64,000 nucleotides of DNA. It comes from Eledone cirrhosa (lineage: Eukaryota). Made by a program: the position numbers and the translations under genes. The stretch covers positions 282,348,001 through 282,412,000 of the forward strand of contig OZ024742.1 of NCBI GenBank assembly GCA_964016885.1, written 5' to 3'. Positions 5,741 through 61,029 of this stretch are shown here, piece by piece. The stretch's first letter is position 1, and each line of letters opens with the position of its first letter. The notes under the pieces are model-generated. The model saw only the letters and a list, made by a program, of their open reading frames with translations. It was not told the DNA's origin and did no database searches.

Positions 5741-5744
<4 letters not shown>

Positions 5745-7006: not shown

Positions 7007-7010
<4 letters not shown>

Positions 7011-7172
7011 AACGAGTAGGACCCCGACGGCTGAGCTCAAGCCGTTTCAACGGCTAATTCTTGAGCTCAGCCGTCGGGGTCCTACTCGTTCCTATTACCC
7101 ACTCTACTACCCTAACTATTGAGTACTTTGGTGCGTTATGGTCCACCTGGTTCCTTACCACATTTCCTTCGT
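7007..7172 (+). mobile_element. short (TA)n-inserted fold-back element (family also at 45190-45395, 56000-56080, 59002-59432, 60414-60497)
   Basis: Hairpin at 7007-7094 plus the shared body attacccactctactacc...ccttaccacatttccttcgtta, flanked by (TA)n. Confidence 0.8.
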
Positions 7173-7788: not shown

Positions 7789-7891
7789 CTGCCGATTAAC
7801 TCACTCGAGATGCAAATTAGGCTGCTCAGCCGTTAATATGCATAAGGAAAGTATATACTTTCAGACGTTCAATCATCTGGAAGGAAGGTAT

Positions 7892-8744: not shown

Positions 8745-8787
8745 ACGGTGCTGACGATAGTTAATAAGCTTGAAACTAGTACATCGT
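8745..8787 (+). ncRNA. type I minimal hammerhead ribozyme motif (copy 3)
   Basis: acggtg-CTGACGA-t agtt aat aagct t-GAAA-ctag-TA-catcgt. All core nucleotides are intact. Confidence 0.8.
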
Positions 8788-9044
8788 TCCTTTGTCAGTG
8801 TTGAACAAAAGGGCAACAATGTACGGCTTAATTCGGGATGTTTGTTTACAAACAAACCGAACATTATAATAAATGTTCGGTGAATCCATACGTACATATA
8901 TATATGTGTGCATGTATGTATACATATACATACTACTGTACGTCTGTATACATATATGTATGTACGTATACATACTTATATATATATATATATAAATATA
9001 TAAATATATATATAAATACATATATATATATATATATATATACA

Positions 9045-18012: not shown

Positions 18013-18288
18013 ATTAGAAATGTTAGCTATCGCCGTATTTTGACTAAAGAAATTAAAGAAATTATTTAGCCTGATAGTGGGGTTAAGAACCCTCGGAGAA
18101 ATGGAAAAAGAAGAGTATTGACGTACATGTATGCGTATATATGTGTATATACAAATATAAATACATACTCTGTCTCTCTCTCGTACGTCAATACTCATCT
18201 TTTTCAATTTCTCCGAGGGTTCTTAACCCCACTATCAGGCTAAATAATGTTTTTAATTTCTTTAGTCAAAATACGGCGATACCTTAAA

Positions 18289-18296
<8 letters not shown>
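18013..18296. repeat. inverted repeat with ~100-bp arms and a 56-bp spacer, within (TA)n
   Basis: 18028-18126 is the reverse complement of 18183-18281. Confidence 0.9.
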
Positions 18297-18351: not shown

Positions 18352-18825
18352 AACCAGTAGAGCAAATATTTATTATGAAACCAACGATTCTTTGCTTAAA
18401 CTTTAATCTGTTCTTATAATATGTATGTGTGTGTGTGTGAGAGAGAAAGAGGGGGGGTATTCCATATTAATTTTTTTGTTTGAGGTGAGGGTGCTTTATT
18501 TCAGACCGCATGGAAGTCATAGATTTCTCTCAATTGCGCAACTGTAAATTGCATCTGTTTACGCTAATGACAGTGACTAACTTTTAAAAAAGGGTTTTTT
18601 TTTCTATCTAGAAGCATAGGATTTGACACGAGAATGTCTGTATGTCTGGAATCACTTGTAGGTGCAAATGAAGCAATTAAACGTGTGTGTGATGGTGGTA
18701 ATGTAGCATGAGGGAGTTGTAATAACGGACGCGAGTGACAGGAAGAGAGAGGAAGTAGTAGATAGAGAAAGAGAGGGATACATACAAAAAGACATATACA
18801 TGGACATAGCTACTGATAGATAGAT

Positions 18826-21800: not shown

Positions 21801-21925
21801 ACTTGCCGGCAAGGACAAGTTGAGCTTCCAGTAACCGGGGCCCTGTCTATGAGTTCTGTCAAGGTTGACCATTTGTGGTCTGAATAGCCAACCATGCGCA
21901 TTTTTGGACAACTTAAAAAGTCCTT
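18891..21925 (-). mobile_element. Tx1/L1-clade LINE copy A, 5'-truncated, in (GATA)n
   Basis: Uninterrupted ORF2 from the APE C-terminus (SDHK, PGYWKLN) to the stop. 3' UTR has AATAAA and both flanks are (TAGA)n. Confidence 0.93.
19155..21911 (-). CDS. Tx1-like ORF2 (RT plus zf-RVT), N-terminally truncated
   Basis: KSPGLDGLP, NFRPITLLN, DQSKAFDRV, IRQGCPLS, AYADDV, GGLGMP and CPRC...ETVAH...C motifs. The annotated Met is not the real start. Confidence 0.93.
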   Translation of the reverse strand: MSKNAHGWLFRPQMVNLDRTHRQGPGYWKLNLSLPASRAYRNRISTLVKERLTGAIVNSRWWVSLKREIRVVSIEFSKVLAADRNRKERELIDRVEEAIRSGDVARVLASRTALSQFFDAKHEGCVVRSKIRALGNEGTKAVSWARVTEANSGTKSTIRSLRDLDGRAILEPKQMCEAFQRHFARLFGRGGEPVGNVDFGPYLDGLPRLSDREAKSCEEPISAAEIEDVLSQCGKRKSPGLDGLPYELYLAMPDLFPDLLEAVYCNWQQNGRIPCTVTKGVVTLVRKDENKGDEISNFRPITLLNTELQILAKVLAKRLALVVGNLVGDAQTCAIPSRSIHDNLHLMRYIIERVGNEPGFGGALINLDQSKAFDRVDHGYLDAVLAAAGFGPVFRGWITAMHSSRICSRVKVNGYLSEPFQIARSIRQGCPLSSLLYVLTLEPLLRKLELLQGIPLEPGLRKAVSAYADDVTVMVSTASKIEAVGTLLEEYERFTGAKLNRDKSIGLQLGTWRGRPMPSDSVVGRWTEGPVKLLGVWFGPDLQVEKNWAEVTNRVFALTQKWASCKLSLKGRAEVANTYIASVIYYRLTVVPCPRETLTKMERALFQFLWKRRAPMVRRSICCQHPSKGGLGMPWLMMRKHALRLRHLYVFLTGQPVWASFVRRTFPRLVSLTELQSWVKQRPRKLGAWHTECAQALTALWQADPVISGDSTATFYRGLVRSRCDDALGEALDMEEDELAGLFGRTFSPGPMDNFQKSLAWQCYRGALPVRERLYRHGRPGRNPAKKICPRCVCDEETVAHALVHCSGVADLWGYVEQLLTTESIVMIKPPPPFKDEAEAVFLCVIAMAKEVVWWTRLKGLRSGTFLSGQQLVRFFRYHFGRRIRMEREVLHPSRFYERWVKVARMARVNGPSLYIRL

Positions 21926-22052
21926 AGATAGATAGATAGATAGATAAAACGGTATGTAGGTAGGTAGGTATTTAATAGGTAAGTAATCGGATAGCAAGAT
22001 AAGTAAATAGGTAAGAAGATAGGTAAGTTGTTAGGTAGGAAGATAGATATAT

Positions 22053-23018
22053 ATCTTTCTTTATTTGCCACAGGGGCGTACAAAGATGGAACATTACAAG
22101 ACGTGACGGCGGGGGTTTTACATAAAAATCATATAACATTAACATTAATAAATAACAAACTATATATAATAAAATAACAATTGAAATCCCCAATAGGGGG
22201 GGAACGTTACTGCAGGTTTTTTTTACAACCCATGGATAGAACAACCCTCAACATCAGGAACACGTTTTGTAGGTGTTCCTGTCTTCCCTCTGTTTATCTT
22301 CCTCAACTTACAGGTTTATATACAGAGAAGGCCCATTCACTCGGGTCATTTTCGCCACAGTCACCCACCTTTCGGCGAATTTACTGGGGTGTTGCACCTC
22401 TCTCTCCACTCTCACCTTCTTTCTGAAGTGGTACTTAAAGAAGGGGATAAGTTGTTGTCCGGCGATAAAGGTGTTTGCCGTCAGTTCTATTAACCTCGTC
22501 CATCATATTACCTGCTTCGGCATAGCCACCAGACAGGAAAACCGCCTCTCCTTCGTGCTTTAATGAAGGCGGCGGGGTGATCCTCACCATGGACTCCGCT
22601 GACAACTGGATGCGTCCCACACGTGACAGTAGCTGTTCGACATAATTCCACAGGTCGGTCAACCCTGGACACTGAACAATTGCGTGCAGAACGGTTTCGT
22701 TGTCCTGCTCGCATCTTGGACAGGTCCTTTTGGCAGGATCTCTGCCAGGGCGTCAGTGCCTGTAGATTTTGTCTAGACCTGGTAGAGCTCCTCGGTAGCA
22801 CTGCAAGGCCAAAGACCTCTGGAAGTTATATATAGGCCCTGGACGGAAAGTCCTCCCGAACAGACTGTTCAGTTCGTCCTCCTCGATGCCTAGAGTTTCC
22901 CCCGAGAACGTCGTCGCACTTATCCTCCACTAATCCCTTATAGAATGTCGAAGTGGAGTCTCCGCTGATTGCCGTTTCCGCTTGGTAGAGGGCTGTGAGC
23001 ACCTGAAGGCACTCGAAG
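22053..23018 (-). mobile_element. Tx1-like LINE copy B, ~1-kb frameshifted 3' fragment of a different subfamily
   Basis: Translated fragments (DLWNYVEQLLSRVGRIQLSAESM) match the copy A C-terminus. Flanks are GATA/GGTA. Confidence 0.85.
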
Positions 23019-23019
23019 G

Positions 23020-23065
<46 letters not shown>

Positions 23066-23283
23066 GATAGATATATTTATTTATTTACCATAAAGGCATA
23101 AAAAGAAGGGACAAATACAAAGGGGGAGTTTACATACAATCGAGTAAAAAGGGTATAAAATGAAAATAATCGAAAATAACCTCAAAAGGGAGGGGACGTG
23201 ATGGGGGTTGCACCGAAAAAGTGTGCAATCCTTTGCCCGGGGAGCACATGGAGAAGGTGCTCCCCTCTCCTTCACTTCTTTAC

Positions 23284-25654
23284 CTACAAGATGGTACACA
23301 GAGAAGGCCCATTTACACGAGCCATTCTCGCCACTATCACCCACCTTTCATAAAACTGCCTGTGGCCAAGCACCTCTCTCTCCATTCTTATCCTTCTTCC
23401 GAAGTGATATCGGAAGAAGTAGACCAGACTATGGCCAGAGAGGAAGTTGCCTGACCTCAGACCTTTCAATCGTGTCCACCAAACAACCTCTTTCAACATG
23501 GCTATTACGCACAGAAAAAACCGCCTTTGCTTCCTTTGTGAAGAGGGGAGGCGGTTTGATTGTCATCACGGACTCGGCGGTCAATTTAATCGACGCCACC
23601 CGCGACAGCAGTCGTTCGGCGTAGCCCCACAGATCAGCCACGCCCAGACATTGCACCAATGCGTGCGCAACGGTTTCTTCGTGACGCACGCATCTAGGGC
23701 AAATCTTTTTTGAGGGATCCCTGTGATCGTGTGATTTCGAACGGCTTCGAAAGGTAGCCGTTCACCTTGATCCTAGAACAGATGTGGTTGCTATGTAAGG
23801 CAGTGATCCAGCCTCTGAAAACAGGACCGAACCCAGCCGCCGCTAGCACCGCATCATGGTAACCATGGTCGACCCTATCGAAGGCCTTAGATTGATCCAA
23901 GTTGATGAGGGCCCCACCGAAACCGGGTTTGTTGCCAACCCTCACTATGATGTATCGTATGAGGTGGAGGTTATTGTGAATGGACCTGGATGGGATAGCA
24001 CATGTCTGCGCATCTCCCACCAGGCTACCCACGACAAGCGCCAACCTCTTTGCTAAAACCTTGGCCAAAATCTTTAACTCTGTGTTTAGCAGGGTTATGG
24101 GCCGAAAATTATTTATACTATCCCCCTTGTTCTCGTCCTTCCTCACCAGCGAGACTACGCCCTTGGCTACAGAACAAGGAATTCTCCCGTTCTGCTGCCA
24201 ATTGCAGTAGACCGCTTCGAGGAGTTCGGAGAATAAGACCGGCATTGCTAAATAAAGTTCGTAAGGTATACCATCGAGACCTGGAGATTTGCGTCTGCTG
24301 CATTGGCTCAGCGCATCTCCGATCTCATCAGCCGAGATTGGTCCCTCGCAGGACTCTGCCTCTTCGCTCGAGAGACGCGTCAGGCCGTCGAGGTATGGAC
24401 CGAAATCCACGTCCCCGCCCGGACCCTCGCCTCCCCCGAATAATCGGGCAAAGTGCCTTTGAAAGGCCTCGGACATCTGCTTAGGCTCCCGGATCACCCG
24501 TCCATCCTCGTCTTGCAACGACCGGATGGTGGATCGATTTCCACTCTTAGCTTCTGTCACGCGGGCCCAGCCAACGGCTTTGGCCCCCTCATTACCTAGA
24601 GCACGTATTTTACTTCGAATGACGCAGCCTTCGTGCTTTGCATCGAAAAACTGGTTCAAGGCCGTCCTCGATGCCAGCACTCTGGCCACATCTTCGCTCT
24701 TGATTGCCTCTTCTAATTTACCTGTTAATTATTTCTCGTTTCTATTCCTATCGGCAGCTAACATCTTGCTATAACTTATTGATTCTGTTCTAATCTCTCT
24801 TTTGAGAGATGCCCACCATCGGTTGTTGACGATTGTACCCGTCAACCTCTCCTTAACTAATCTGCTAATCCGGTTTCTGTATGTCTCTTTTGCCGGTAAA
24901 GACAAATTAAGTTTCCAGTAACCGGGACCCTGTTCATGTGTTTTCTCGAGATTGACTACGCAGGTCACTAATTTGTGATCCGTATAGCCAACCGTGCGCA
25001 TTTCTGGACAGCTTAATATGTCCCTATCCTGACTTCTAACTAAGAATTTATCTAAGTACGATCTAGATTGACCACTGTGGTTTCTCCAAGTCCAGGTAGG
25101 CACAGTTGGAAAATCTAGTCGATATCTATCGACCAAGTTAAAACGGTCGAGTAACCCTTGAGGCTGTTACACCCCCCTCTATTAGGACATGCTCCTGCAT
25201 AGTCCCAACGTGCATCTAGGATGTCATTCCAATCCCGCGCTAGAAGCAGGGAACGCGACGTTCCCAGAAAAGTCTCCAAACGCTGGAAGAAGTCGGGCCG
25301 TTCAACTCCGGAAGGGGAGTAGACGGCGACCAGTCTCAAGGCCGCACCTTCACTACTGCCAACGTCTAGCACCAACAAACGACCCTCCGGGTCCGAGTGA
25401 ACAACCTGTACGGCAAGACCCAGGTGTTTTTGCAGCAGTACGACAACCCCACCCCCACCTCTAGGTTGACAGAGAGATGCATGCACCACAAAGTCATCGA
25501 AGGTAGGGGTCAGCTGCCGCACGACGCTGATCCGAGTCTCACAGATAACCATTACATTTATACCACATGACCTGAGGTCATTTAGAAGCTTTGTTTGCTT
25601 CCAAGTTGAGCCCAGGCCACGTGCATTCAAACATCCTACTCTTAACACGTCCAT
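23284..25654 (-). pseudogene. frameshifted, internally deleted ORF2 (APE-RT) of Tx1 copy C
   Basis: APE motifs (SYLDKF, TDHK), RT domains up to DQSKAFDRV, and a C-terminal WWTR motif. Confidence 0.85.
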
Positions 25655-25687
25655 GTGGGCGGCAGAGCCAAAGGAGAGTGTAGAGAC

Positions 25688-27644
25688 CTACCTTTCTGCT
25701 TCCCGGGGTTCGGGTCGCACGACTTCCATGGGGTCGGGGGTGTTCGGTGAAGGGGTGTCTTGTGGTGGTGTGGGGTCGTCAGTGTTTGGTGGGGTTGGGG
25801 TGTTTGGAGTTGTGTTGGGGAGGGGAAGGGGAGGGGGAAAGCTTTTTAGTAGGACGCGGTTTATGGGTTTGACAGAGGGTGGTCCTACGTCCTCCTTAAA
25901 ATCCTTTTTTAGTTTTTGGTAGAGGTTCATTGGGATCTTTATTAATTTTAAATGTGGGTAGTTTTCTGAAGAAACAAAGTTTACACCTTCGGTTTGTACC
26001 GAAGGATTATTGTTTATGAGTTCATTTAATTTATTATTGTTTCTGTTGATGTAAGTATAGTGTAATGTCTTTTTTTCGGATGGTGTGAGTGTTTCGAAGA
26101 GGGGAGGGGCAGGTTTGGTTTTGTTTGTTGCTGGAGGGGTGTTTTGTGTTTTGTTGGGTTGTGTTGACATTTGGGTGGGGGTTGTTTGGCCTTGTGTGTT
26201 TTGCACATGTTTTCTTTTTTTCCTTTTAATCTGTCTGAAGAACTCCGTTTCTTCCTCCGAATTCGTTGGGTTATCTTCAGTGTTGGAGTGAAGAGGTATG
26301 TTTGCTGGTAATGTTTCCGTGTTGATTTTCTTTGTGGGGGAGATGGATGTCACTATGTTAGACTGTGTTGTGTGTTGTGGCTGCGGTGGTTGTATTGTTT
26401 TATTGAGTGAGAGGTTGGGTGGGCCTGTATTTTGTTTTGGGGTAATGTGTTGTGACTGTTTGTGTTGTGGTGGTGGTGTAGTTTTACTGAGGGACGGGTT
26501 GGGTGGGACCGAGTTTTGTTGTTTGTTTATCTGTTGTGGTGGTGGTGGTGGAGCTGGTGTTGGTAGCAGGGTTTTCTTTTTGTTGAGTTGGGGACAAGCC
26601 GCCTTCAGGTGCCCTCTGCCTGCCCAAATATGACATGACGGTCTTCTCCCCTCGACGCTAATGTTTATATACCCGTGGCCCTCTAATAGGATTCTGTCGG
26701 GTATTTGGGCGATGTGTTCAGGCTTCATTTGCACTACAAGCTCTATACCTGTTCCACTGAACGCATTGCCTGTGGTTTTCCCAATGGAAATCACGTTGTC
26801 ATTCGCTGGATCGATGAAGCCAGCTATGAGCCACATCTGGTAACATTGCATCCAGCCATATGCGTTGAGTTCTTTTACCCATATAAGATGGATAAAAGGT
26901 AAAATTTTTCGAACGAATCGGTGACAAAGCACATTTTTTTGCCGCCGATTCGTTCTTCATAATAATCGCTAGGCTTCCATACAGTCTGTCTTTTCTTATG
27001 AAAGTGGTTTCATTAAGTACTTCTGTGAGTACTGTTTTGATATCTGTTTGAGTTGGCTGTTCAGGTTTTTTTAAAGTGTTGTTGATGGTGCGGAACACGA
27101 CCGCTCGACTTTCAATGTCTTTGGTGAGTTCTTGAGGCATTTTTACCGATAAAATACCATTCTCTCCTTCACTTATGTATTGTTTGGCGTCTGTGATTCT
27201 TTGTGCCACATCTGAAATATTTTCAGGTATATATGTCAAAGATTTCTTTGTTGTTTGTGCAAATGAAATCTTGTTGGTGTTGACTTTGTCGTCTGCTTCG
27301 CTTTCTGTTATGATGTTGTTTTCAAATGTTATTTTTGTGTTTGTTGTGTCTTTGCTTGTGGTATTAATATTGTCTTGCAATTTTTCAAATTTTTTTTTTT
27401 CGTTGTTGGAATCCATATCCAGATTTGTGTTTTCGTCATTTTTCTCCGCAGATTCGTCTGTTTTTATTTTAATTTTTCCTTCCTTCTCTATGACGTTAGT
27501 TGGGAAGGAAGGGGGGACTAAAGCGTGCGAGCTTACAACTCTTACCGCTGTCCCCTCACCACTATTTTCGTTAGCTTCGTTTAACATTTCTGTCAGACGA
27601 TTGAAATTTTTTTGCCACAAAATTTTTAAAAACAGGTTTTTCAC
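25688..27644 (-). pseudogene. frameshifted ORF1 (gag-like) of Tx1 copy C
   Basis: Degenerate CCHC knuckle VEGRRPSCHIWAGRGHLKAACP and a Pro/Thr-rich tail. Homologous to 37408-38733. Confidence 0.75.
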
Positions 27645-27820
27645 CCCTAGGAGGGGTAAAGATGAGCTGACCCACCGCCTGACAGTTCAGACGGGGGGTC
27701 AAGCTACACAATAGTATCAAAATTAAATTTGAACTTACAAAATTTCCGCAATAAATTTGAACAAAACTTCTGCGCGTAGTGAATTACATCTACACTGTAG
27801 AACAGACGACAGCTAGATTA

Positions 27821-31647: not shown

Positions 31648-31860
31648 TATACACAGAGAGAGAAATAGCCACGGAATATTGTATGTATACACACCAAATA
31701 CATATTCAATAGAAGAATATGTACACAGGAGGAATCATAAGTGAAACCTTATAGCGTTACTTCCACCTCTGTACATATTCTTCTATAGAATATGTATTTG
31801 GTATATATACAATATACTGTCTTTCTTGTGTGATATATGGCTCTTTCTCTCTCTGTATAT
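31648..31860. repeat. imperfect palindrome centred near 31745
   Basis: accaaatacatattc..agaagaatatgtaca pairs with tgtacatattcttct..gaatatgtatttggt. Confidence 0.8.
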
Positions 31861-32203: not shown

Positions 32204-32307
<104 letters not shown>

Positions 32308-32381
32308 AACCCGTAGAGCAAATATTTATTATAAGAACAGATTAAAGTTTAGCAACGAATCGCTGCTTATATATATATATA

Positions 32382-33130: not shown

Positions 33131-33937
33131 TCAGATATTCAGGACGTATCGGAGGGTTCTTGCTGTTCCAAGCAAGCATGCCTTTTGAAGCGTTCCAAAA
33201 AGCGTGAAGGGGCCGATTTTCTTTAACCATCCCTGGAAACCTTTGGAGATAGTCCCCAGTGCGCCTATGACAATCGGGATCACTTTGACTTCATGGCAGT
33301 TCCAAATTCTTTTCACCTCCCACTTTAGGTCCTGGTATCGGTTAATTTTCTCCCTCTCCTTCTCTTGCACTCTCGTGTCGAACGGGCAGGCCACATCCAC
33401 AATCAGACACGATCTTTTTTCTTTGTCCACAACCACCAGGTCAGGTCTATTGTGTTCCAGTTTTTTGTCCGTCTGTATCCTAAAATCCCACAGCACCTTC
33501 ACCTGATTGTTCTCCATCACCGCCTCTGGCCTATGCTCATACCATTTCTCAGAATGTGGTAATTTGTTTACTTTGCACAGGTGCCAGTGGATCACCCTGC
33601 CCATCACATCGTGTCTCCAGCCCTTATAGTGGGTCTGGGCTAGGTGTTTACACTCGGACACAATGTGAGCCACAGTCTCCTCTCTCTCTCCACAGATCCT
33701 GCACAGTGGGCTAGCCTCCTCCTTGTAGATATGGTGCTTCAACCACTTCGTTTTGAGGGCCTGCTCCTGCGCAGCCATTAGCATTCCTTCTGTAGCCTTT
33801 TTGAGGTCTCTTTTTCTCAACCAGTTCCATGTCTGTGGATCTCTAAATTCAGTTTTCTCAAAGAAGGTACTATGAAGGGATTTTCCCTTAAGGCTGCTCT
33901 TCCTCCTTGATGTTATTTCCTCCTTGGACATCCCCAC
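33131..33937 (-). CDS. R4/Dong-like C-terminal ORF fragment (CCHC + REL endonuclease)
   Basis: CRICGEREETVAHIVSEC, RHD, RPDLV, DVACPFD and KINRYQDL motifs. Confidence 0.88.
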   Translation of the reverse strand: MGMSKEEITSRRKSSLKGKSLHSTFFEKTEFRDPQTWNWLRKRDLKKATEGMLMAAQEQALKTKWLKHHIYKEEASPLCRICGEREETVAHIVSECKHLAQTHYKGWRHDVMGRVIHWHLCKVNKLPHSEKWYEHRPEAVMENNQVKVLWDFRIQTDKKLEHNRPDLVVVDKEKRSCLIVDVACPFDTRVQEKEREKINRYQDLKWEVKRIWNCHEVKVIPIVIGALGTISKGFQGWLKKIGPFTLFGTLQKACLLGTARTLRYVLNI

Positions 33938-33979
<42 letters not shown>

Positions 33980-34343
33980 TCCTTTTAAATCTCAGTCATT
34001 GATGTTGGTTAAATGGAAAGTCCGTTGGAATGAATATCAAGCCACTCAGATATTCAGGACGTATCGGAGGGTTCTTGCTGTTCCCAGCAAGCATGCCTTT
34101 TGAAGCGTTCCAAAAAGCGTGAAGGGGACGATTTTCTTTAACCATCCCTGGAAACTTTTGGAGACAGTCCCCAGTGCGCCTATGACAATCGGGATCACTT
34201 TGACTTCATGGCAGTTCCAAATCTTTTTTACCTCCCACTTTAAGTCCTGGTATCGGTTAATTATTATTATTATTATTATTGTTGTTTTTATTCCTTGAAT
34301 CTCAGTCATTGATGTTGGTTAACTGGAAAGTCCGTTGGAATGA

Positions 34344-34382
<39 letters not shown>

Positions 34383-34465
34383 GTTGTTATTCCTTGAATC
34401 TCAGTCATTGATGTTGGTTAACTGGAAAGTCCGTTGGATTGAATATCAAGCCACTACCTGCAGCC

Positions 34466-35686
34466 TCAGATATTCAGGACGTATCGGAGGGTTCTTGCTG
34501 TTCCAAGCAAGCATGCCTTTTGAAGCGTTCCAAAAAGCGTGAAGGGGCCGATTTTCTTTAACCATCCCTGGAAACTTTTGGAGATAGTCCCCAGTGCGCC
34601 TATGACAATCGGGATCACTTTGACTTCATGGCAGTTCCAAATCCTTTTCACCTCCCACTTTAGGTCCTGGTATCGGTTAATTTTCTCCCTCTCCTTCTCT
34701 TGCACTCTCGTGTCGAACGGGCAGGCCACATCCACAATCAGACACGATCTTTTTTCTTTGTCCACAACCACCAGGTCAGGTCTATTGTGTTCCAGTTTTT
34801 TGTCCGTCTGTATCCTAAAATCCCACAGCACCTTCACCTGATTGTTCTCCATCACCGCCTCTGGCCTATGCTCATACCATTTCTCAGAATGTGGTAAATT
34901 GTTTACTTTGCACAGGTGCCAGTGGATCACCCTGCCCATCACATCGTGTCTCCAGCCCTTATAGTGGGTCTGGGCTAGGTGTTTACACTCGGACACAATG
35001 TGAGCCACAGTCTCCTCTCTCTCTCCACAGATCCTGCACAGTGGGCTAGCCTCCTCCTTGTAGATATGGTGCTTCAACCACTTCGTTTTGAGGGCCTGCT
35101 CCTGCGCAGCCATTAGCATTCCTTCTGTAGCCTTTTTGAGGTCTCCTCTTCTCAACCAGTTCCATGTCTGTGGATCTCTAAATTCAGTTTTCTCAAAGAA
35201 GGTACTATGAAGGGATTTTCCCTTAAGGCTGCTCTTCCTCCTTGATGTTATTTCCTCCTTGGACATCCCCTGGCCTACTGTCCCCTCCTTCAGTACAGTT
35301 CTGAGCATTGGCTCCTTACTATAGGTCACGTATTTGTATAGGTTGTTTTTCTCCATCTGAACACAGTCCTCTATGCTGATAAGACCTCTTCCACCCTCAG
35401 ATCTCCTTAGGTAGAGTCTATCGACATCACTCCTCTTGTGGAACATGTTGTAGATAGTCAATAGCTTCCTAGTCTTCCTATCCATTTCTTTTTGTTCAGC
35501 AACATTCCATCTCAGAATTCCCGCACTGTACCTAATAATAGACACAGCTCGGGAATTTACTGCGCTTATGGCATTTCTGCTGTTCAGATGTGACTTCAAT
35601 ACGCTCCTTACTCTCCGAATGTATTCAGTTCTTAACAATTCCTTCATTTTTTTGTTCTTTATGCCATCAGCCTCCAGAACGCCCAA
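34466..35686 (-). CDS. R4/Dong-like ORF fragment (RT thumb + CCHC + REL endonuclease)
   Basis: GVLEAD, RLYLRRSEGGRGL, AAQEQAL, CCHC finger and PD..D..K REL motifs. No stops across 406 aa. Confidence 0.9.
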   Translation of the reverse strand: MGVLEADGIKNKKMKELLRTEYIRRVRSVLKSHLNSRNAISAVNSRAVSIIRYSAGILRWNVAEQKEMDRKTRKLLTIYNMFHKRSDVDRLYLRRSEGGRGLISIEDCVQMEKNNLYKYVTYSKEPMLRTVLKEGTVGQGMSKEEITSRRKSSLKGKSLHSTFFEKTEFRDPQTWNWLRRGDLKKATEGMLMAAQEQALKTKWLKHHIYKEEASPLCRICGEREETVAHIVSECKHLAQTHYKGWRHDVMGRVIHWHLCKVNNLPHSEKWYEHRPEAVMENNQVKVLWDFRIQTDKKLEHNRPDLVVVDKEKRSCLIVDVACPFDTRVQEKEREKINRYQDLKWEVKRIWNCHEVKVIPIVIGALGTISKSFQGWLKKIGPFTLFGTLQKACLLGTARTLRYVLNI

Positions 35687-36033
35687 ATACTTATTATTAT
35701 TATTATTGTTATTGTTATTCCTTGAATCTCAGTCATTGATGTTGGTTAACTGGAAAGTCCGTTGGATTGAATATCAAGCCACTACCTGCAGCTTCAGATA
35801 TTCAGGACGTATCGGAGGGTTCTTGCCGTTCCAAGCAAGCATGCCTTTTGAAGCGTTCCAAAAAGCGTGAAGGGGCCGATTTTCTTTAACCATCCCTGGA
35901 AACCTTTGGAGATAGTCCCCAGTGCGCCTATGACAATCGGGATCACTTTGACTTCATGGCAGTTCCAAATCCTTTTCACCTCCCACTTTAGGTCCTGGTA
36001 TCGGTTAATTTTCTCCCTCTCCTTCTCTTGCAC

Positions 36034-36559: not shown

Positions 36560-37407
36560 TGGCGACCTACGTAGGAAATCGTATCATCGTGAGCTCCGCA
36601 AAGGTTTGTTGTTTTCAGTTGTTTAAAATTGCCATTCATTGAAAATCTTTATTGTTAACTGTTTATAAGTGCACATATATTGCTTTCTGAAAAGGACACT
36701 CAAAAAGATTGGGGCCTTGAGCCCAAAATTTAAACTTTTATAATTATCAAACAAAAAATTTCTTTGAAAAAATCATGGACGACTCACAGTTACACCAAGC
36801 AGCTGAGAGCCTTCTTCACAAACTAACACCTCACACCAACACCACCATTGTAAATATGACTACGTTTGCCAACATTAAAAATATAAGCAGTAGCAATAAT
36901 TTAAATTTGTCTCATGCAGACATTCATTTCACGCCATTACCAATGACTTCAGGTGTTGAAGCCACCACCCCTACCACACCACAGCGACAACAGAAACAAA
37001 ATAAAAAATAAAATATCTCGTGACATCGAAATGGATTCACCCAGAATGGACTCTTCCACACCGAACACCACTGACGCCACCACCACCACAACTGAAACTA
37101 AAAATAACAATAACAAAATAACGATAACAACAACAGCAACAACAGCAATGAGAATAAGAAAACCACCCTGTCTTTTGCTAGAGCAGCAAAAAAGTGCGAA
37201 GCAATCCAGGTAACTCGGGAGGAATTAGATGAAGCCAAGAGAATGGTAAAGAAAGATGGGTACAGGGTGAGCGTCACCCCCCCCCCACACACACACTTAA
37301 TAAAATGGAGCATCGGCGCCTATGCACCGTGTCTTATCGGACGATTAACATAAAATCGCGCCGAGTGGAACGGGCATCCGAGTCCCAAATCCAAAAAGCT
37401 TTGGGAT

Positions 37408-38733
37408 ATGTGTGGGCAAAAAACCCACATCAGACGTGGGCAGAAATATGGAACCGTGGACGTGTTCTTTGGAATACCACAGGAGGCCAGAGAACACTCC
37501 ATTGCCCCATTAAGAAGTGACGACTTCACACTCGTCCCAAGCTATTGTGGCCAGATACTCGTGAAGATCAGGGTGACCCACGTTCCACCGGCCATCGAAA
37601 TTCCCTGGCTAATGGCTGCCGTCCTCGCCGGCATCGAGGCCAACACCAAGATAATCGAAATAGCGAAAGAAAAGCAGGAGAACTGGTCCGGATCTGGGAT
37701 GGAGCTCCTCATCCAAGCGGACCAAAAAAGCATTGAGGAGATCCCAGAGGTAATAGACCTCACTGACGGCTGCCACCTCACCGTAATCGTCGAGGGCAGA
37801 AGGCCTAGGTGTGTCGTTTGTGGTGAAGGAACCCACCTAAGAGCTTTCTGCCCTCAGGCTAAAAGGTTGAGACCACCTCTCTTACCCACCCCAGTAACTC
37901 AACCATCAACACAACCAGCAGCAGAAATGGCAGCAACAACTGTAGCAGCAACAACAGAAGCAACTGTAACAGCAACAACCACAGCAACAGTAACAAAACC
38001 AACACCACCACCACCCAACGCGCCAGAACTAGCAGCAGTGCCTACACCATCCACCACCCACAACCTAAACCAACGCCTGTGGAGGATTTTCCACTCCCCG
38101 ACGTATCGCAACTGGAAACAGATTGTGACGACGAGGAGTGGGAAACGGTATCAGGAAAAAAGAAAAAAAGAAAAAGAAGCCAAAAAAGGGAAAATCCTCT
38201 TCCTTCCCCCCTCCAAAAACAAAATACAGAGGGAAACAAATAAACTATCAAACAAAATAGTTAGGACAGCTATGCCACCATTCACACCAGCATCACCAAC
38301 CCCATCACCACAAACAGCAACACCATCATTAACCCCAACACCACCATCACAAACACCACAAAAGCCACCAAAAAGCGAAACAGAAACAAACCCACAACAA
38401 ACGCAAACAAAACAAAACAACCAAAACGATACACACTACACAGCATTAAATTTGAACAACAACCAATTATTACACTACGTCCAACACAACACCAGCATCA
38501 CAGAAAAAGACTACACAACACCCCAAAAGTTCACACCACATCCACACATACAAATCACTTGCATCACAGAGAAAACGTACACGACACTAAAACGAAATTC
38601 CCCAAAGACATCGGAGACTTCCGACAAGCACTCTCCAGGAGGACTTAGGATTTATAAGGACATCCTTCCGGAGGAGGCCACAAGCAGTGAAAATTATGGA
38701 GAAACCATCCTTCCTCTACGAGAAGTAAGGTAA
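37408..38733 (+). pseudogene. ORF1 (gag-like zinc knuckle) fragment of Tx1 copy E
   Basis: VEGRRPRCVVCGEGTHLRAFCP motif, upstream of the APE start. Confidence 0.78.
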
Positions 38734-38759
38734 GTGGTCTTTCCCATCTTTTCCACTCC

Positions 38760-41216
38760 ATTTCAACTGACCTCACTCAGAATAGGCAGCATAAATGCGC
38801 GTGGCTTGGGGTCGTCATGGAAGCAGGGCCATCTGCTCAACGACCTCAGGTCACTAAACATAGATGTAGTGGCCATCAGCGAGACCAGAATCTCCGAAGG
38901 TACGGGCCTTCGCACCGATCTTCGGCGGCTACGACGTGTACACATCTCCCAGCCATCCTGGATCGGGGGGGAGGAGTTGCTGTGCTTTTTCGGAGAGGTT
39001 TGGATCTCGCCATACGGGCCATCTTCCTAGACCCAGAGGGTAAGCTGGTGGTGCTGGACGTGACCAGCGGAGACGGGCAAGCTTTCAGGCTAGTGGCCGT
39101 CTATGCCCCGACAGGAGCAGGGCGGCCTGATTACTTCCGGCGTCTGGAGACCTTTCTTGGAACGTCCCCCTCTTTAGTTTTAGTGGCGACTGGAAGGGGA
39201 TCTTAGATGCACGCTGGGACTGTGTGGGATTAGCGGATAGGGGAGGAGGGTGCAAGAGCCTCACCAACCTGCTCAGGCGTTTTGGACTGTCTGACAGGTA
39301 CCGATTGGATTTCCCGAATGTGCCAATGTGGACTTGGACAAACCGTATCGGGTCATCCAGATCATATCTAGATAGAGTATTTTGTAGGGAAATAGATAGG
39401 TGTAGCATCGGCTGTCCACAATTCAAGATAGTCAGCTACACGGACCACAAATTCGTGATCTGTGTGCTTGACTTAGATAGGCTTCATAGACGAGGACCCG
39501 GCTACTGGAAGCTAAACGCGTCCTTACCAGCGCGCAAGGCGTACAGAGACTGGATTAGCGAACTAGTTAAGTGGGCGTTGACGGGGGCCATCGTCAACAA
39601 CAAGTGGTGGTTTGCTCTGAAAAGAGCGATTAGAATAGAGTCCATTAAGTTTAGTAAGGCTTTAGCAATAGAGAAAAATAGAGCAGAGGGAGAACTAGTT
39701 AGAAAATTAGACGAGGCGCTTAGCAAAGGCATCGCGACCGACGTACTTGCGGCGAAATTGGCCCTTGACCAATTCTTCAATGCAAAGCACGTGGCTGCGT
39801 TGTCAGTGCTAGGGTACGTTCTCTCAGACAGGAGGGGACGAAAGTCGTTCAATGGGCCCGAGTGGCGGAGGCGCGTCGTGGCAACAAAGCCACGATCCGG
39901 TCTTTGGTGGACCACGACGGGGGTATGCTACTCGATCCCGGGCAAATGTGTGAAGCTTTTCAGCGACACTTCGCTCAGCTGTTCGGGGGAAGCGGCGGGC
40001 CGGGTCGAGGGATGGAGTTTAGTGTCTACCTCGACGGACTGCCGCGGCTCCCGGCCACTGAGGCGGAGTGGTGCGAAAAGCCGATAACAGCCGCTGATGT
40101 ACGGGAGGCAATGACTGGCTGCACAAGGGGTAAATCGCCTGGTTTGGAAGCTCTGCCCTATGAACTTTACGTACAGATGCCAGACTTGTTCGGAGGCCTC
40201 TTGGCGGACGTCTACTGCAACTGGCAACAGAACGGGAGAATTCTCAGCTCTGTGAGCCGAAGAGCGGTGGCGCTGCTGAGAAAGGATACGAACAAGGGGG
40301 AAAACATAGATAATTTTAGGCCCATAACTCTGCTAAACACAGAGTTCAAGATTTTGGCCAAGGTACTAGCAAAGAGGTTGGCGCCTGTCGTTGGTGGTCT
40401 GGTGGGAGAGGCGCAGACATGCGCCATTCCCGACAGATCCATCCACGACAACCTCCACCTCATGCGATACATTGTAGAGAGGGTAGCTAGGGAACCGCCC
40501 AAAACTGGGACGAGGTGACGAGCAGGGTGGCTTCTCTCACCCAGAAGTGGGCGGAAAGGAAGCTATCCCTGAAAGGTCGAGCGGAGGTGGCTAACGCGTA
40601 CATGGCGTCCGTCATCTACCGTCGTACCTTGACCTAAGCCCCGCCTGACTGAGCTGGAGCGTTTGCTCTTTCGCTTTTTGTTGAAGAGACGCGCTCCGAT
40701 TGTCAGGCGGTCCATCTGCTGTGAACACCCGCTACGTGGAGGGCTGGGCATGCCGTGGCTGATGATGCGCAGACACGCGCTCAGGCTACGACATCTCCAC
40801 CTCGCAGATGCTCGCAGGGCGACGAAACCGTCCTGCACGCACTCGTCCTGTGTCCGAGCATTTCTGACTTGTGGGTTTATGTCGAACACCTGCTGTCACG
40901 TGTAGGACGGATCCAGCTATGAACTGAGTCCATCGTGTGGATCGCCCCGCCCTCTTCCTTTAGCCGGGAAGGGCAGGCAGTTTCTATCTGGCTGGTGGCC
41001 ATGGCGAAAGAGATAGTATGGTGGACACGTTTGAAAGGGCTGAAGACGAGCACTTACCTCTTCGGTGATGCCCTGATTAACTTTTTCAAATTTCATTTGA
41101 AAAGGAAAATCAGGGTAGAGAGGGAAGTGCTCTCTTCCCAGCATTTTGTTGAAAGATGGGTGAGAGAAGCAAGAATGGGCCGAGTGAATGGGCCTACTCT
41201 GAGTATGTGTCTGTAA
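38760..41216 (+). pseudogene. frameshifted, internally deleted ORF2 of Tx1 copy E
   Basis: Multiple frames match the ORF2 of copies A and C. Confidence 0.85.
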
Positions 41217-45189: not shown

Positions 45190-45215
45190 TCTGGTTCCTT
45201 ACCACACTTCCTTCG

Positions 45216-45257
<42 letters not shown>

Positions 45258-45391
45258 CGAAGGAGTTGTGGTAAGGGACCAGATGGACCATAACGCACCA
45301 GAGTACTCAATACTTAGGGTAGTAGAATGGGTAATAGGAAAGGAATAGCCGGCGAAACGGCTTGAGCTCTGCCGTCGGGGTCATACTTTTT

Positions 45392-45395
<4 letters not shown>
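45190..45395. mobile_element. (TA)n fold-back family copy, partly deleted
   Basis: Body shared with 7095-7172. Retains GAAA-cggc..gccg-TC-ggggtc. Confidence 0.75.
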
Positions 45396-54753: not shown

Positions 54754-55549
<796 letters not shown>

Positions 55550-55919: not shown

Positions 55920-56121
55920 AATAAATGTTCTAAACCAAAGTTTTATCGTATTACCACTTTGTATATATATATATATGAAAAGATTCCGGACCCGATTCAT
56001 ATTACCCACTCTACTACCCCTAGTATCGAGTACTCTGTTGCGTTATGGTCCACCTGGTATCTTACCACACCCTCTTTGTTATGTATATATATATATAGTA
56101 ATAAGATAGATATATATATAT

Positions 56122-56263
56122 TTATTAAAATAACAGATTAAAGTTTAAGCAAAGAATCGCTGCTTTCACCCTTAACGGGATCTTCTGAAACTAGTTTCAG
56201 AAGATCCCGTTAAGGGTGAACGCAGCTATTCTTTGCTTAAACTTTAATCTGTTGTTTTAATAA
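56122..56263. repeat. near-perfect 142-bp palindrome centred on gaaa-ctag-tttc
   Basis: Arms are complementary with no spacer. The arm sequence also occurs at ~18375-18420 and ~32325-32368. Confidence 0.9.
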
Positions 56264-56350
56264 TTATTTGCTCTACAGTTCTTATATATCTGATATATAT
56301 TTATCCTTATCGAGCCCTCTTTGGATTTTAGTCTTCAAATTTATTATTAT

Positions 56351-57449: not shown

Positions 57450-57563
57450 TTAGGATTCGTGCTCTGAAATAGTGATGTATATATGAATGTATGTATAGTA
57501 TATTGCCAAATATACTATACATACATTCATGTATACATCGCTATTTCAGAGAACCAATCCTAA
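57450..57563. repeat. palindrome with a 4-nt loop
   Basis: ctctgaaatag.gatgtata.atgaatgtatgtatagtatatt-gcca-reverse complement. Confidence 0.85.
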
Positions 57564-57809
57564 ATATATTATATATTGAAGTCGGTGGTTCACTACTGGA
57601 TAGAACTAGTCATTCCATATAGTTAACCATGATGCAATAGGAGGAAAAACATTCATTTATCTTTTATGTAAGATTGTGTTAGTGGTGCGAGAACGGAGTT
57701 AATTATTATTGAATATATAGTTATTTAATTATACTTCAGGAGAGTCGTGCTGCTAATAAAAATACACACACCAGTTGAGTATCACTTCAATTTATTATTA
57801 TTGATTAAG

Positions 57810-58240
57810 TAAAGGTGGTGGGTTGGCAGAATCGATAGAACGTCGGAAAACATGCTTAGTGGAATAGAGTTATGGTCCTTTACCTTCTGAGTTCAAATCC
57901 TGCCGAGGTTAACTTTGCTTTCAACCTTACGGGTTCGATAAAATAAAGTACCAGTAATGCACTGGAATAATTGCTAGCATTGTGCCAAAAATAGAAACAA
58001 TTATTGTTTAAGCAAAGGCGGTGGGTTGACAGAATCGATAGAACGTCGGACAACATGCTTAGTGGCATAGAGTTATGGTCCTTTACTTTCTGGGTTCAAA
58101 TCCCGCCGAGGTTAGCTTTGCCTTTCATCTTTGCGAGGTCGATAAAATAAAGTACCATTAACGCACTGGGGCTGATTTAGTCGACTTTTCCCTCCCCTTC
58201 AAATTGCTGGCTTTGTGCCTAAAGTAGAAACAATTATTGA
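57810..58240 (+). mobile_element. two tandem tRNA-derived SINE copies
   Basis: Heads aggtggtgggttggcagaatcgatagaacg at ~57812 and ~58016, each with B-box and core. Confidence 0.88.
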
Positions 58241-58589
58241 TTAAGTAACTAATCAATAACTTTGATCGGTTAGTTTATTTGTTAATTGTCAAAGCTCATT
58301 CATCACAAACTTTCTTCCAGTGACTTCTTTTGTTACTTTGTGGCTCCGGAGGCGATAACAGTTGGAGTTCGGCTCTTCCACGTTCGGACCATACCTTGTG
58401 GTTGTGTTCATCATCTATAATATCTAAATATCTGTGATCCTGTGTATTATAGGCTATACGATACTAAACATATATTAATAAATCTTTGTTTTGTTGTACA
58501 CCAACTTGTCTTTATGCATGATATAAGGTGGTATATGTGAATTAGTACAGAATGTAGGCGGAAAAAATTACATTTCAAATTATTCTTTG

Positions 58590-59001: not shown

Positions 59002-59004
<3 letters not shown>

Positions 59005-59191
59005 CGAAGGAAATGTGGTAAGGAACCAGGTGGACCATAACGCACCAAAGTACTCAATACTTGAGGTAGTAGAGTGGGTAATAGGAACCAGTAAGACCCC
59101 GACAGCTGAGCTCAAGCTGTTTCGACGGCTAATTCAGTCCAGAATTAGCCGTCGAAACGGCTTGAGCTCAGCTGTCGGGGTCTTACTGGTT

Positions 59192-59245
<54 letters not shown>

Positions 59246-59430
59246 AACGAGTAGGACCCGACGGCTGAGCTCAAGCCGTTTCGACGGCTAATTCAGTCCA
59301 GAATTAGCCGTCGAAACGGCTTGAGCTCAGCCGTCGGGGTCCTACTCGCTCCTATTACCCACTCTACTGCCTTAGTATTGAGTACTTTGGTGCGTTATGG
59401 TCCATCTGGTTCCTTACCACATTTCCTTCG

Positions 59431-59432
<2 letters not shown>
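59002..59432. mobile_element. two opposed copies of the (TA)n fold-back element around a (TA)n spacer
   Basis: 59002-59195 has its body on minus and 59242-59432 on plus. Each carries a ~113-bp hairpin with loop agtcca. Confidence 0.88.
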
Positions 59433-59473
<41 letters not shown>

Positions 59474-59600
59474 AAAGTTCTATTTAAATTGTTGGGATAC
59501 AACAAGCAAATATTTTTATAACTGATATAAAGCACTCAACAAATATTTGGAGTAAAAATACGATATTAACAAATGGAAACTATATTTATAAAACCATATT

Positions 59601-59665
59601 TATTTCATTATACATATTTCAAGGACACCAAGTAAAATTATGGTGTGCTTTCATCAGATAAAATA
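59601..59665 (-). ncRNA. type I hammerhead motif within an inverted repeat (59558-59813)
   Basis: Minus strand reads tattttat-CTGATGA-aagcacacca (10-nt loop) tggtgtcctt-GAAA-tatgta-TA-atgaaata. Confidence 0.75.
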
Positions 59666-59929
59666 TAATATAGATCAGTTTTATAAATAAATATTGACAT
59701 ACCCTTAAAGAATGCAACCATTGCCGCCCGAAGCTTTAATTTGGTGTCCTTGAAATATGTATAATGAAATAAATATGGTTTTATAAATATAGTTTCCATT
59801 TGTTAATATCGTATATATATTTATATATATATACATACATACATATATACATACATACATACAGACAGACATACATACAGTCAGACAGAGTGTATATAAC
59901 GCCAAGCCACAAAAGCAACCACATATATT

Positions 59930-60110
59930 AATTGTTTCTACTTTTGGTACAAGGCCAGCAATTACTCAGTGTATTACTGGTACTTTATTTTATCGACCCC
60001 ATAAGGATGAAAGGCAAAGTTAACCTCGGCGGGATTTGAACTCAGAATGGCAAGGGCCGTAACTCTATCCGTCAAAGCATGGCGTCCGACCCTCTACCGA
60101 TACTGCCAAT
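59930..60110 (-). mobile_element. tRNA-derived SINE (MetaSINE-like core)
   Basis: Reverse complement of 49292-49472. Confidence 0.88.
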
Positions 60111-60630
60111 CCACATATATTAATATACATATATATGTGTGCATGAGAGATTATGCGTGTGTATGCGTGTGAGTGCATATGTCAGTGGCTGCGTGCGCGC
60201 GCGTGTGCGTGTGTGTAAAACATTTTGAAACAAACTAGGAGTGCCCTGGAACAAATATTTTCCCATCACCTACAAGGTACATTATATAGTTTGTTACATT
60301 TCCAGGGGCATTTTTGTTCCTGTAGAAATAAAACACTATTGATTCATCCCACCTTCCACACATATGCACATGCAGAAACACATGGACATGCATACATAAT
60401 ATATATTTATATATAACGAAGGAAGTGTGGTAAGGAACCAAATGGACTGTAACGCACCAGAGTACTCAATACTTAGGGTAGTAGAGTGTGTAAGGAAAAT
60501 GTTTAACATTTTCCTATATTCTGTATACATATATATATATATATATATAATTGGTGTTGGATGCTTAAAGCGTCCGTATGCGGTAGGCCGTATGATCATT
60601 CGATGCTCTCATAGAGCAGAGTATGGTATG

Positions 60631-60842
60631 ATATCACAGAAAAAAAGAGAATCACTGTTGCTACGAATGGAATTTATTGGACATATTACAATCGTTTCTC
60701 TGGCGACCAGTTCGAGGCACGATCGATGTTCAGATTCAGGTTCGATCATCACATCGATCGTGTCTCGAGCTGGTCGCCAGAGAAACGATTCTAATATGTC
60801 CAATAAATTCCGTTCGCCGCAACACTGATTCTCTTTTTTCTG

Positions 60843-60848
<6 letters not shown>
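60631..60848. repeat. ~100-bp-arm palindrome, each arm carrying a GAAA-cgatt(g/c)-TA hammerhead half
   Basis: Arms at 60631-60729 and 60751-60848. Related to 1-150. Confidence 0.88.
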
Positions 60849-60928: not shown

Positions 60929-61029
60929 ATGGCTTCTACAGGACTAGAGCTGTTTCATTCGGGAGAAATCATCATGGGCTTCCTGGTGTTTTCTCGCGAT
61001 TGAAACAGTTCTAGTCCTGTAGAAGCCAT
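60929..61029. repeat. palindrome with GAAA-c..g-TC on each arm
   Basis: atggcttctacaggactagagctgtttca pairs with tgaaacagttctagtcctgtagaagccat. Confidence 0.85.

What the first reader, a model, noticed from the sequence alone, without database searches (positions are those of the whole stretch)
59002..59432. Fold-back elements centred on hammerhead helix II, with a flip/flop loop
Seen: each hairpin reads [revcomp arm]-gacggctaattc-agtcca-gaattagccgtc-GAAA-cggct tgagctc agc(c/t)g-TC-ggggtc. That is helix II, GAAA, helix III and GUC of an HHR, with the 5' half (helix I plus CUGAnGA) replaced by an inverted copy of the 3' half. Copy-specific variants occur on both arms (ccagtaag/cagct in the left copy, cgagtagg/cggct in the right), so one arm was templated from the other. 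The loop agtcca has the same + orientation in both copies although their bodies are opposed. Inference: cDNA snaps back and self-primes at helix II, then the hairpin is resolved, as with parvoviral flip/flop ends. This would give a mechanism for Penelope-type 5' inversions.
Basis: partly seen in the sequence, partly recalled or inferred. Interest (0 to 1): 0.78.

Follow-up and report, generated by a model that had tools for sequence, protein, structure and literature searches.

The report
Penelope fold-back insertions, loop either way
Two neighbouring hairpin-shaped repeats carry the same six-base loop in opposite orientations; they are likely stubs of a Penelope-like jumping gene copied from both strands of the landing site at once, which would help explain how these elements come to have inverted ends.

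Summary
Positions 59004-59193 and 59244-59431 are two copies of one family: a 52-bp inverted arm, the loop AGTCCA, a direct arm and a 79-80-nt tail, set in (TA)n. Relative to the tail the loop is reversed between the copies, and three substitutions appear on both arms of the left copy. Raw reads of the same species label show an abundant family (about 0.17% of reads in two RAD runs) with two fixed 3' ends followed by (TA)n and variable 5' junctions near the loop. This is the known Penelope-like layout of an inverted, truncated pseudo-LTR plus a tail. The 3' half of a hammerhead is present, but no CUGAnGA parent was found, so 'helix II' is unproven. Of three other fold-backs in the window with a core I could place, one breaks at helix II and two do not. 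Self-priming at Penelope palindromes was already proposed in 2013. Priming from both target strands fits the fixed short-arm end and the reversed loop better than snap-back does, but loop inversion after insertion is not excluded. Verdict: a new variant of a known kind, useful as a test of mechanism.

The parts
59004..59083 (-). Left copy, tail (80 nt), present on the long arm only; its outer end abuts (TA)n
   Evidence: tail end followed by (TA)n in 1088 and 1030 reads
59084..59135 (-). Left copy, long (tail-bearing) arm with the hammerhead-like 3' half
59136..59141 (+). Left copy, loop AGTCCA on +; reads TGGACT in tail-right orientation ('flop': sense with the short arm)
59142..59193 (+). 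Left copy, short inverted arm, ends at (TA)n
59194..59243 (.). (TA)n between the two copies; likely target tract
   Evidence: (TA)n targeting by Penelope-like clades in PMC8557442
59244..59294 (-). Right copy, short inverted arm (1-nt deletion in the C run)
59295..59300 (+). Right copy, loop AGTCCA ('flip': sense with the long arm); in most reads it is non-inverted upstream sequence of the parent
   Evidence: C59294T in 1246 of 1402 and 1284 of 1422 reads, loose ends before 59288
59301..59312 (+). Candidate 3' strand of helix II, ending in C before GAAA (inferred)
   Evidence: G10.1-C11.1 conserved in these ribozymes (PMC4209133)
59313..59335 (+). Hammerhead-like 3' half: GAAA, stem CGGCT/AGCCG, loop TGAGCTC, GUC triplet; the 5' core CUGAnGA is absent
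59336..59352 (+). Rest of the long arm up to the inner fixed end, which equals the outer end of all short arms
   Evidence: (TA)n loose ends behind 59355 in 3262 and 2806 reads
59353..59431 (+). Right copy, tail (79 nt), ends at (TA)n 59432-59470
7009..7172 (+). Family copy: whole short arm, no loop, long arm cut at the equivalent of about 59321, whole tail
45257..45393 (-). Family copy: whole short arm, long arm almost absent, whole tail; a tail-end fragment at 45191-45216 faces it across (TA)n
55996..56069 (+). Family fragment, tail only
60416..60493 (-). Family fragment, tail only

Best explanation
These are two short insertions of one abundant non-coding repeat family, each an inverted 52-bp arm, a 6-nt loop, the same arm in direct orientation and a 79-80-nt tail set in (TA)n; they are likely non-autonomous stubs of the hammerhead-bearing end of a Penelope-like retrotransposon, likely written by reverse transcription from both nicked target strands at two fixed start sites, which would copy both arms from one RNA segment and leave the loop in either orientation. 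Shown: the anatomy, the two fixed 3' ends about 79 nt apart, variable 5' junctions, mirrored variants and both loop orientations. Inferred, step 1: a Penelope-type enzyme nicks both strands of (TA)n. Step 2: one strand primes at the tail end and the other at the inner start site, so only one arm has the tail. Step 3: synthesis tends to stop near the structured region 5' of GAAA. Step 4: the two cDNAs are joined head to head, and whichever ran further carries the loop. Step 5: once a perfect fold-back is itself transcribed, its two cDNAs are complementary over the arms and can anneal with only the loop unpaired; repair or replication would then fix flip or flop at about 1:1 and re-copy both arms from the 3' arm. 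Step 5 accounts for the two copies sharing the same two breakpoints (59295 and 59301) swapped between the arms. The stubs lack CUGAnGA and are predicted not to self-cleave alone.
For: Two fixed ends followed by (TA)n: behind 59355 in 3262 and 2806 reads, behind 59428 in 1088 and 1030 reads. The layout of inverted truncated copy, tail at one end and (TA)n target is described for Penelope-like elements (PMC8557442; PMC3846280). A purified Poseidon protein cuts and extends both target strands, starts at two sites that bound the tail, and is predicted to be a dimer (PMC11167929). The arms co-vary within copies. In 11 of 13 joints used, the direct piece starts inside the tail and shares nothing with the inverted piece, the pattern of L1 twin priming (PMC2837659). 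The short arm carries the loop in other loci too: TGGACT in 2 of 10 rows of table 5c, and joints at 59295-59296 in both raw runs. A59295T is seen in 46 of 1530 and 31 of 1609 reads, that is 0.29 and 0.22 of the reads that lack T at 59294, against about 0.36 expected at 1:1 from natural 150-mers of the two copies. A neighbouring element (59472-59811) has the same layout with a complete hammerhead core on the long arm. A Hydra-type Penelope-like reading frame lies in the window.
Against: Only two complete fold-backs could be read base by base; no genome is held. [quoted passage not shown] The tail is 79-80 nt against 30-40 nt in the papers. The in-vitro paper found no difference in start site between the strands, so strand-to-site assignment is not shown. 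The joints do not separate truncation at insertion from later one-sided deletion of a palindrome: short-arm cuts are detectable over only about 20 positions, and 10 of 25 joints were hidden. The other three loop positions were not among the 40 of 97 variant rows shown, and the A59295T reads are not shown to be the same reads as those with C at 59294. Perfect C-G closure of the loop does not match annealing through the short inverted repeat of the majority parent (T at 59294), so step 5 needs a fold-back template that was not observed as RNA.
Confidence: 0.5

Rival explanations
1. Same Penelope-like origin, but the reversed loop and mirrored variants arose after insertion, by template switching or recombination between the arms of a 52-bp palindrome during host DNA replication; the one-armed copies are later one-sided deletions.
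For: Inter-strand template switches are reported to invert hairpin loops and correct stems in one event (PMC8794818, passages). The single-stranded hairpins are very stable (-65 and -68 kcal/mol). It explains the identical breakpoints in both copies without a new step. One of the three mirrored changes is a CpG transition.
Against: That paper calls loop inversion with stem correction extremely rare in rRNA (6 of 9,931 patterns), though selection limits it there. Here 1 of 2 full copies is reversed and reads suggest reversal is common. It does not explain the origin of the short arm or its fixed end.
Confidence: 0.25
2. One reading: a single cDNA snaps back at helix II and primes on itself, and the hairpin is then opened by nicking, as at parvoviral ends, giving flip and flop.
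For: Short-arm ends cluster at 59295-59311 (13 of 13 joints used). In the majority form a 6-7-bp inverted repeat flanks AGTCCA. In the 59472-59811 element the short arm starts at the 3' strand of helix II. Self-priming was inferred from junction palindromes in rotifer Penelopes (PMC3846280), and resolution by the endonuclease was proposed for the tail (PMC8557442). It may well describe how the first fold-back of the family arose.
Against: No parent with CUGAnGA next to the 12-bp stem was seen. Snap-back at the parent's short repeat would keep T at 59294, but both full copies and the 7009 copy have C. Two other fold-backs with a core (56118-56267, 60929-61029) fold 5' of the whole core. Snap-back from the tail-primed strand gives only flip and needs an extra precise cut for the short-arm end. 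Joints with non-overlapping pieces need a further deletion.
Confidence: 0.18
3. Assembly or read chimera.
For: The window holds a 200-N gap. The RAD libraries appear to be cut at AATT on both sides of the loop (molecule ends at 59290 and 59302), so these two loci were not spanned by raw reads.
Against: The arms carry private differences 18 nt from the loop that allow phasing. All 7 listed opposite-strand joints occur in both raw runs, which are different samples, and 2 also in contigs of a third run. Several unrelated families in the window share the layout.
Confidence: 0.04
4. One DNA-transposon-like fold-back element (MITE) spanning 59004-59431, with long terminal inverted repeats around a (TA)n centre.
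For: The whole stretch is self-complementary at 92% and lies in TA.
Against: Single units occur alone at 7009 and 45257. Each unit has (TA)n at both ends in thousands of reads. The arms match within units, not across them. The 5' truncation is variable.
Confidence: 0.03

Closest known systems
Insertions of endonuclease-bearing Penelope-like elements with an inverted 5'-truncated pseudo-LTR and optional tail (Penelope/Poseidon, Neptune, Hydra, Naiad; PMC8557442, PMC3846280)
   Same: Head-to-head inverted arm, tail on one side only, 5' truncation, (TA)n target, junction palindrome, hammerhead-like motif near the 3' end.
   Different: No reading frame; 190 bp in all; tail of 79-80 nt instead of 30-40; only the 3' half of the hammerhead; a recurrent loop found in both orientations, which I did not find described.
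L1 twin priming and dual priming (PMC2837659, passages)
   Same: Both target strands prime cDNA, giving an inverted and a direct piece joined at their 5' truncation points, often non-overlapping.
   Different: The inner priming site is fixed here; the pieces often overlap into a palindrome; there is no poly(A). I did not find it applied to Penelope in the three papers listed for those two terms (listing seen; one checked by passages).
Minimal type I hammerheads of Penelope-like elements (PMC4209133)
   Same: C before GAAA, A-U pair, near-palindromic loop III, GUC triplet.
   Different: CUGAnGA and the 5' strand of helix I are missing; helix III is longer (6 bp) than in the metazoan minimal forms.
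Non-LTR retrozymes (bioRxiv 10.64898/2026.07.22.740005, first fifth of the text)
   Same: Non-coding, hammerhead-related, proposed non-autonomous partners of Penelope-like elements.
   Different: Retrozymes are head-to-tail tandem units with a whole ribozyme; these are single fold-backs with half of one.
Parvoviral flip/flop termini (recalled; PMC11575299 seen as search listing only)
   Same: A hairpin loop found as a sequence and as its reverse complement.
   Different: No Rep/NS protein, no terminal resolution site and no replicon is evident; the likeness is one of outcome only.

Membership tests
Penelope-like element insertion (non-autonomous) | Inverted 5'-truncated copy adjoining the direct copy head to head | tested here: met
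Penelope-like element insertion (non-autonomous) | Tail present on one arm only, two fixed 3' ends | tested here: met
   79-80 nt, longer than the 30-40 nt in PMC8557442 and PMC11167929
Penelope-like element insertion (non-autonomous) | Insertion in (TA)n or AT-rich target | tested here: met
Penelope-like element insertion (non-autonomous) | Sequence link to the pseudo-LTR of an element with RT and GIY-YIG | tested here: inconclusive
   No match to the 3' end of the Hydra-type element in the window; no genome held; 0 hits in six collection scans
Penelope-like element insertion (non-autonomous) | Target-site duplication | not testable with these tools
   Flanks are (TA)n, where a duplication cannot be told apart
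Type I hammerhead ribozyme | GAAA, A-U pair, helix III and UH triplet | tested here: met
   59313-59335; 174 of 20,000 shuffles
Type I hammerhead ribozyme | CUGAnGA core 5' of helix II | tested here: not met
   Absent from 5 of 5 stretches scanned and from the 24 loose ends shown of 471; not excluded for a parent
Type I hammerhead ribozyme | Helix II and helix I formed independently of the fold-back | tested here: inconclusive
   One contig of organism B shows CGGCTATTT some 35 nt upstream, able to pair with the majority AAATAGCCG form; nothing further 5' was shown
Type I hammerhead ribozyme | Match to an Rfam hammerhead model | tested here: not met
   (0 of 1 match); the models also missed the complete cores at 59657 and 8320, so this test is weak
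Type I hammerhead ribozyme | Self-cleavage | not testable with these tools
   needs an assay
Non-LTR retrozyme | Head-to-tail tandem units each with a whole hammerhead | tested here: not met
MITE / foldback DNA transposon | One unit with fixed terminal inverted repeats at both ends | tested here: not met
   Units are asymmetric (tail on one side) and have variable inner truncation
Parvovirus-type hairpin terminus | Both loop orientations present | tested here: met
   1 flip and 1 flop of 2 full copies; indirect support in reads
Parvovirus-type hairpin terminus | Rep-type nickase and terminal resolution site | not tested
   No search for a Rep protein was run; the element has no reading frame

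The most novel reading that the evidence does not exclude
The fold-back is itself the mobile unit: a 190-nt hairpin RNA parasite of a Penelope-like enzyme that is copied from both nicked target strands into two mutually complementary cDNAs. These anneal to finish integration with almost no second-strand synthesis, leaving a loop heteroduplex that sorts into flip and flop at 1:1 and renewing both arms at every jump. The loop would be a genomic footprint of two-strand priming, and so of how Penelope-like elements make their inverted ends and tails.
Probability: 0.3. Interest if true: 0.7.

Novelty: new variant of a known kind. Interest (0 to 1): 0.45.

Why it matters
How Penelope-like elements make their inverted ends and one-sided tails is stated to be open (PMC8557442; PMC11167929). 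An abundant family with a marked, asymmetric loop and arm variants turns that question into a count: loop orientation against copy age and across orthologous loci separates two-strand priming, snap-back and later host rearrangement. The layout itself is known, and self-priming was proposed before, so the gain is a test, not a new class of element.

Tried and rejected
Whole genome: none held, so the genome-wide count could not be made. Pattern scans for the arm and the tail found 0 matches in the viral, metagenome and prokaryote collections. Rfam: no hammerhead among the 150 of 207 matches shown for the window (microRNA hits are hairpin and microsatellite noise below the gathering scores), nor in three short stretches. 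My strict hammerhead descriptor found 0 motifs in the window and also missed the cores at 59657 and 7898-8751, so it was too strict and is no evidence. Motifs from the upstream loose ends had no match in the window at 2 mismatches. Pfam did not name the Penelope-like frame (one hit below its cut-off); the Atlas gave unnamed eukaryotic clusters, commonest in rotifers, at 0.96-0.98, a lead only. No RNA holder listed. The value 2.9e-5 for clustering of short-arm ends tests only a uniform null, uses 13 of 25 joints (2 dropped: 59317-59382 and 59374/59407; 10 hidden) and is bounded by the reference, so I do not rely on it to choose between mechanisms. Earlier notes: none by sequence, by place or for eight words; 35 for three words, 8 shown. 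Supplements of the papers were not opened; element sequence files of PMC8557442 could hold a parent of this family.

Full report
Observation. The stretch 59004-59431 holds two copies of one repeat in opposite orientation, separated and flanked by (TA)n. Each copy is a short arm of 51-52 bp, the loop AGTCCA, the same arm inverted, and a tail of 79-80 nt on one side. The loop reads AGTCCA on + in both; turned tail-right it is TGGACT in the left copy and AGTCCA in the right. The arms differ by 1 and 2 positions within the copies and by 4-5 between them, and the 3 substitutions that separate the short arms are all mirrored on the long arms (P about 4.5e-4 from positions alone). The long arm reads C-GAAA-CGGCT-TGAGCTC-AGCCG-TC, the 3' half of a hammerhead; 174 of 20,000 shuffles give a like pattern.

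The family in the window. BLAST finds 7 pieces. The copies at 7009-7172 and 45257-45393 have a whole short arm ending at about the same inner point, no loop, a cut long arm and a whole tail; 55996-56069 and 60416-60493 are tail only; 45191-45216 is a tail end. None of the 5 stretches scanned has CTGAnGA on either strand. Single units standing alone reject the reading of 59004-59431 as one transposon with terminal repeats.

Other fold-backs. I examined 11 inverted repeats, the two copies included. Several unrelated ones share the layout of (TA)n, short arm, spacer, long arm, tail, (TA)n. In 56118-56267 and 60929-61029 the fold lies 5' of a degenerate core, so both arms carry it (the second placed by eye). 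In the remaining six I could place no core with confidence; the pattern hits at 54834 and 31694 look like chance. So 1 of 3 cases with a core breaks at helix II. A reading frame at 17910-15654 (minus strand, with a frame break) has the RWK, DKT and CxCx5C motifs and a GIY-YIG-like end given for the Hydra clade, which inserts in (TA)n; its 3' end does not match this family. The host looks like an octopus; this is recalled from the interspersed repeat at 57797 and comes from no call.

Reads. No genome is held and six collection scans were empty. One run search listed 12 runs; I laid 4 of them on 59244-59431 at 80% likeness. In two RAD runs with the same species label as the best holder, 21,628 of 12,467,656 and 21,874 of 12,785,554 reads were laid. 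(TA)n follows two fixed places: behind 59355 (3262 and 2806 reads) and behind 59428 (1088 and 1030). Many molecules end at 59302 and 59290, both AATT, which I read as restriction cuts; the two window copies therefore cannot be spanned by these reads, and counts are biased. At 59294, T replaces C in 1246 of 1402 and 1284 of 1422 reads, and 34 contigs of X1 and 1 of X4 continue before 59288 into non-inverted sequence ending in GGCTAAAAATT. The loop is thus ordinary upstream sequence of the majority form, flanked there by an inverted repeat of 6-7 bp. One X4 contig shows CGGCTATTT about 35 nt further up, a possible true 5' strand of helix II with a long loop. None of the 24 loose ends shown (447 hidden) has CTGAnGA. 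The predicted parent is neither found nor excluded.

Junctions and loop orientation in reads. Of 25 joints 15 were shown; I dropped 2 that do not involve the short arm. In the other 13 the short arm ends at 59295-59311 and the direct piece starts at 59320-59395, in 11 cases inside the tail. All 7 listed opposite-strand joints occur in both raw runs, which are different samples, so the layout is genomic. TGGACT stands next to the short arm in 2 of 10 rows of letters between joints. A59295T is read in 46 of 1530 and 31 of 1609 reads (14 and 12 start places) and in 69 contigs of X1. Natural 150-mers of the left copy give T there in 69 of 95 cases and those of the right copy in 0 of 94, so 1:1 would give about 0.36; the observed ratios to reads without T at 59294 are 0.29 and 0.22. 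This is compatible with a common flop form but is not a measurement: the other three loop positions were not among the 40 of 97 rows shown, and the reads are not linked.

Mechanism. The layout is the one described for Penelope-like elements: an inverted 5'-truncated copy next to the direct one, a tail at one end, and (TA)n targets (PMC8557442, passages and section 11). Palindromes at the inverted junction and self-priming as their cause were put forward in PMC3846280 (passages; 0 occurrences of flip, twin or hammerhead). PMC11167929 (parts 1-2 of 4 and passages) shows a purified protein that cuts and extends both strands and starts at two sites bounding the tail, with no difference between strands; it does not discuss inversions. 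I infer that both strands of the target prime cDNA, one at the tail end and one at the inner site, as in L1 twin or dual priming (PMC2837659, passages). That gives a fixed short-arm end, arms copied from one RNA segment, non-overlapping pieces when the first cDNA stops early, and the loop on whichever arm ran further. The two full copies use the same two breakpoints swapped, and close the loop with a C-G pair that the majority parent lacks. The simplest account is that a perfect fold-back has become the template: its two cDNAs would anneal over the arms with only the loop unpaired, and sort into flip or flop. None of this is shown. Template switching in host replication can also invert a loop and even out arms (PMC8794818, passages) and is the main rival; later one-sided deletion explains the joints equally well, because short-arm cuts are visible over only about 20 positions. 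Snap-back remains possible, above all for the founding copy.

Known and new. As an element it works like, and very likely is, a non-autonomous Penelope-like insertion; the link to an autonomous partner is untested. It is not a complete hammerhead (PMC4209133, passages), not a retrozyme (bioRxiv 10.64898/2026.07.22.740005, first of 5 parts) and not a MITE. I found no paper on loop orientation in Penelope inversions (0 papers), in a library that lacks most subscription papers; supplements were not opened. Unchecked notes of this scan report small hammerhead-centred Penelope palindromes and breakpoints near the ribozyme in other genomes. I did not test them; they suggest the layout is common and lower the surprise. 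Verdict: real, a new variant of a known kind; the flip/flop loop is the one feature that makes an open mechanism countable. Interest 0.45.

Noticed in passing
window 7795-8988: Three head-to-tail units of about 430 bp (92-94% alike), each with a minimal hammerhead-like motif (CTGACGA ... GAAA CTAG TA) at 7898, 8320 and 8751; looks like a non-LTR retrozyme array.
   Followed up: partly
window 17910-15440, minus strand: Near-complete Penelope-like element with Hydra-clade motifs (RWK, DKT, CxCx5C, GIY-YIG-like), one frame break, in (TA)n; not recognised by Pfam.
   Followed up: partly
window 59472-59811: Fold-back of another family with a complete hammerhead core on the long arm, a short arm starting at the 3' strand of helix II, and a tail of about 84 nt.
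   Followed up: partly
window 18014-18295, 56118-56267, 57450-57563, 60636-60843, 60929-61029, 54834-55357, 31694-31801, 5272-5351: Further inverted repeats, several with a one-sided tail and (TA)n flanks; at least eight more in 64 kb. The 56118 family has partial copies at 18376-18429 and 32294-32366.
   Followed up: partly
window 5742-6676: Larger nested structure beside (TA)n: a 298-bp inverted arm plus a partial tandem, as in complex Penelope-like insertions.
   Followed up: no
reads on window 59305-59335: A related subfamily (1453 and 1502 reads) shares the GAAA-stem-GUC half but has a different sequence before 59305, with a candidate helix II and no clear CUGAnGA in the 30 letters shown.
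   Followed up: no
window 19155-27686, 37354-40518, 33131-35728: Several non-LTR retrotransposon reading frames (RVT_1 and zf-RVT matches for two of them), some in tandem.
   Followed up: no
window 57797-58250, 59967-60114: Copies of an interspersed repeat that I recall as an octopus SINE; the name comes from no call.
   Followed up: no
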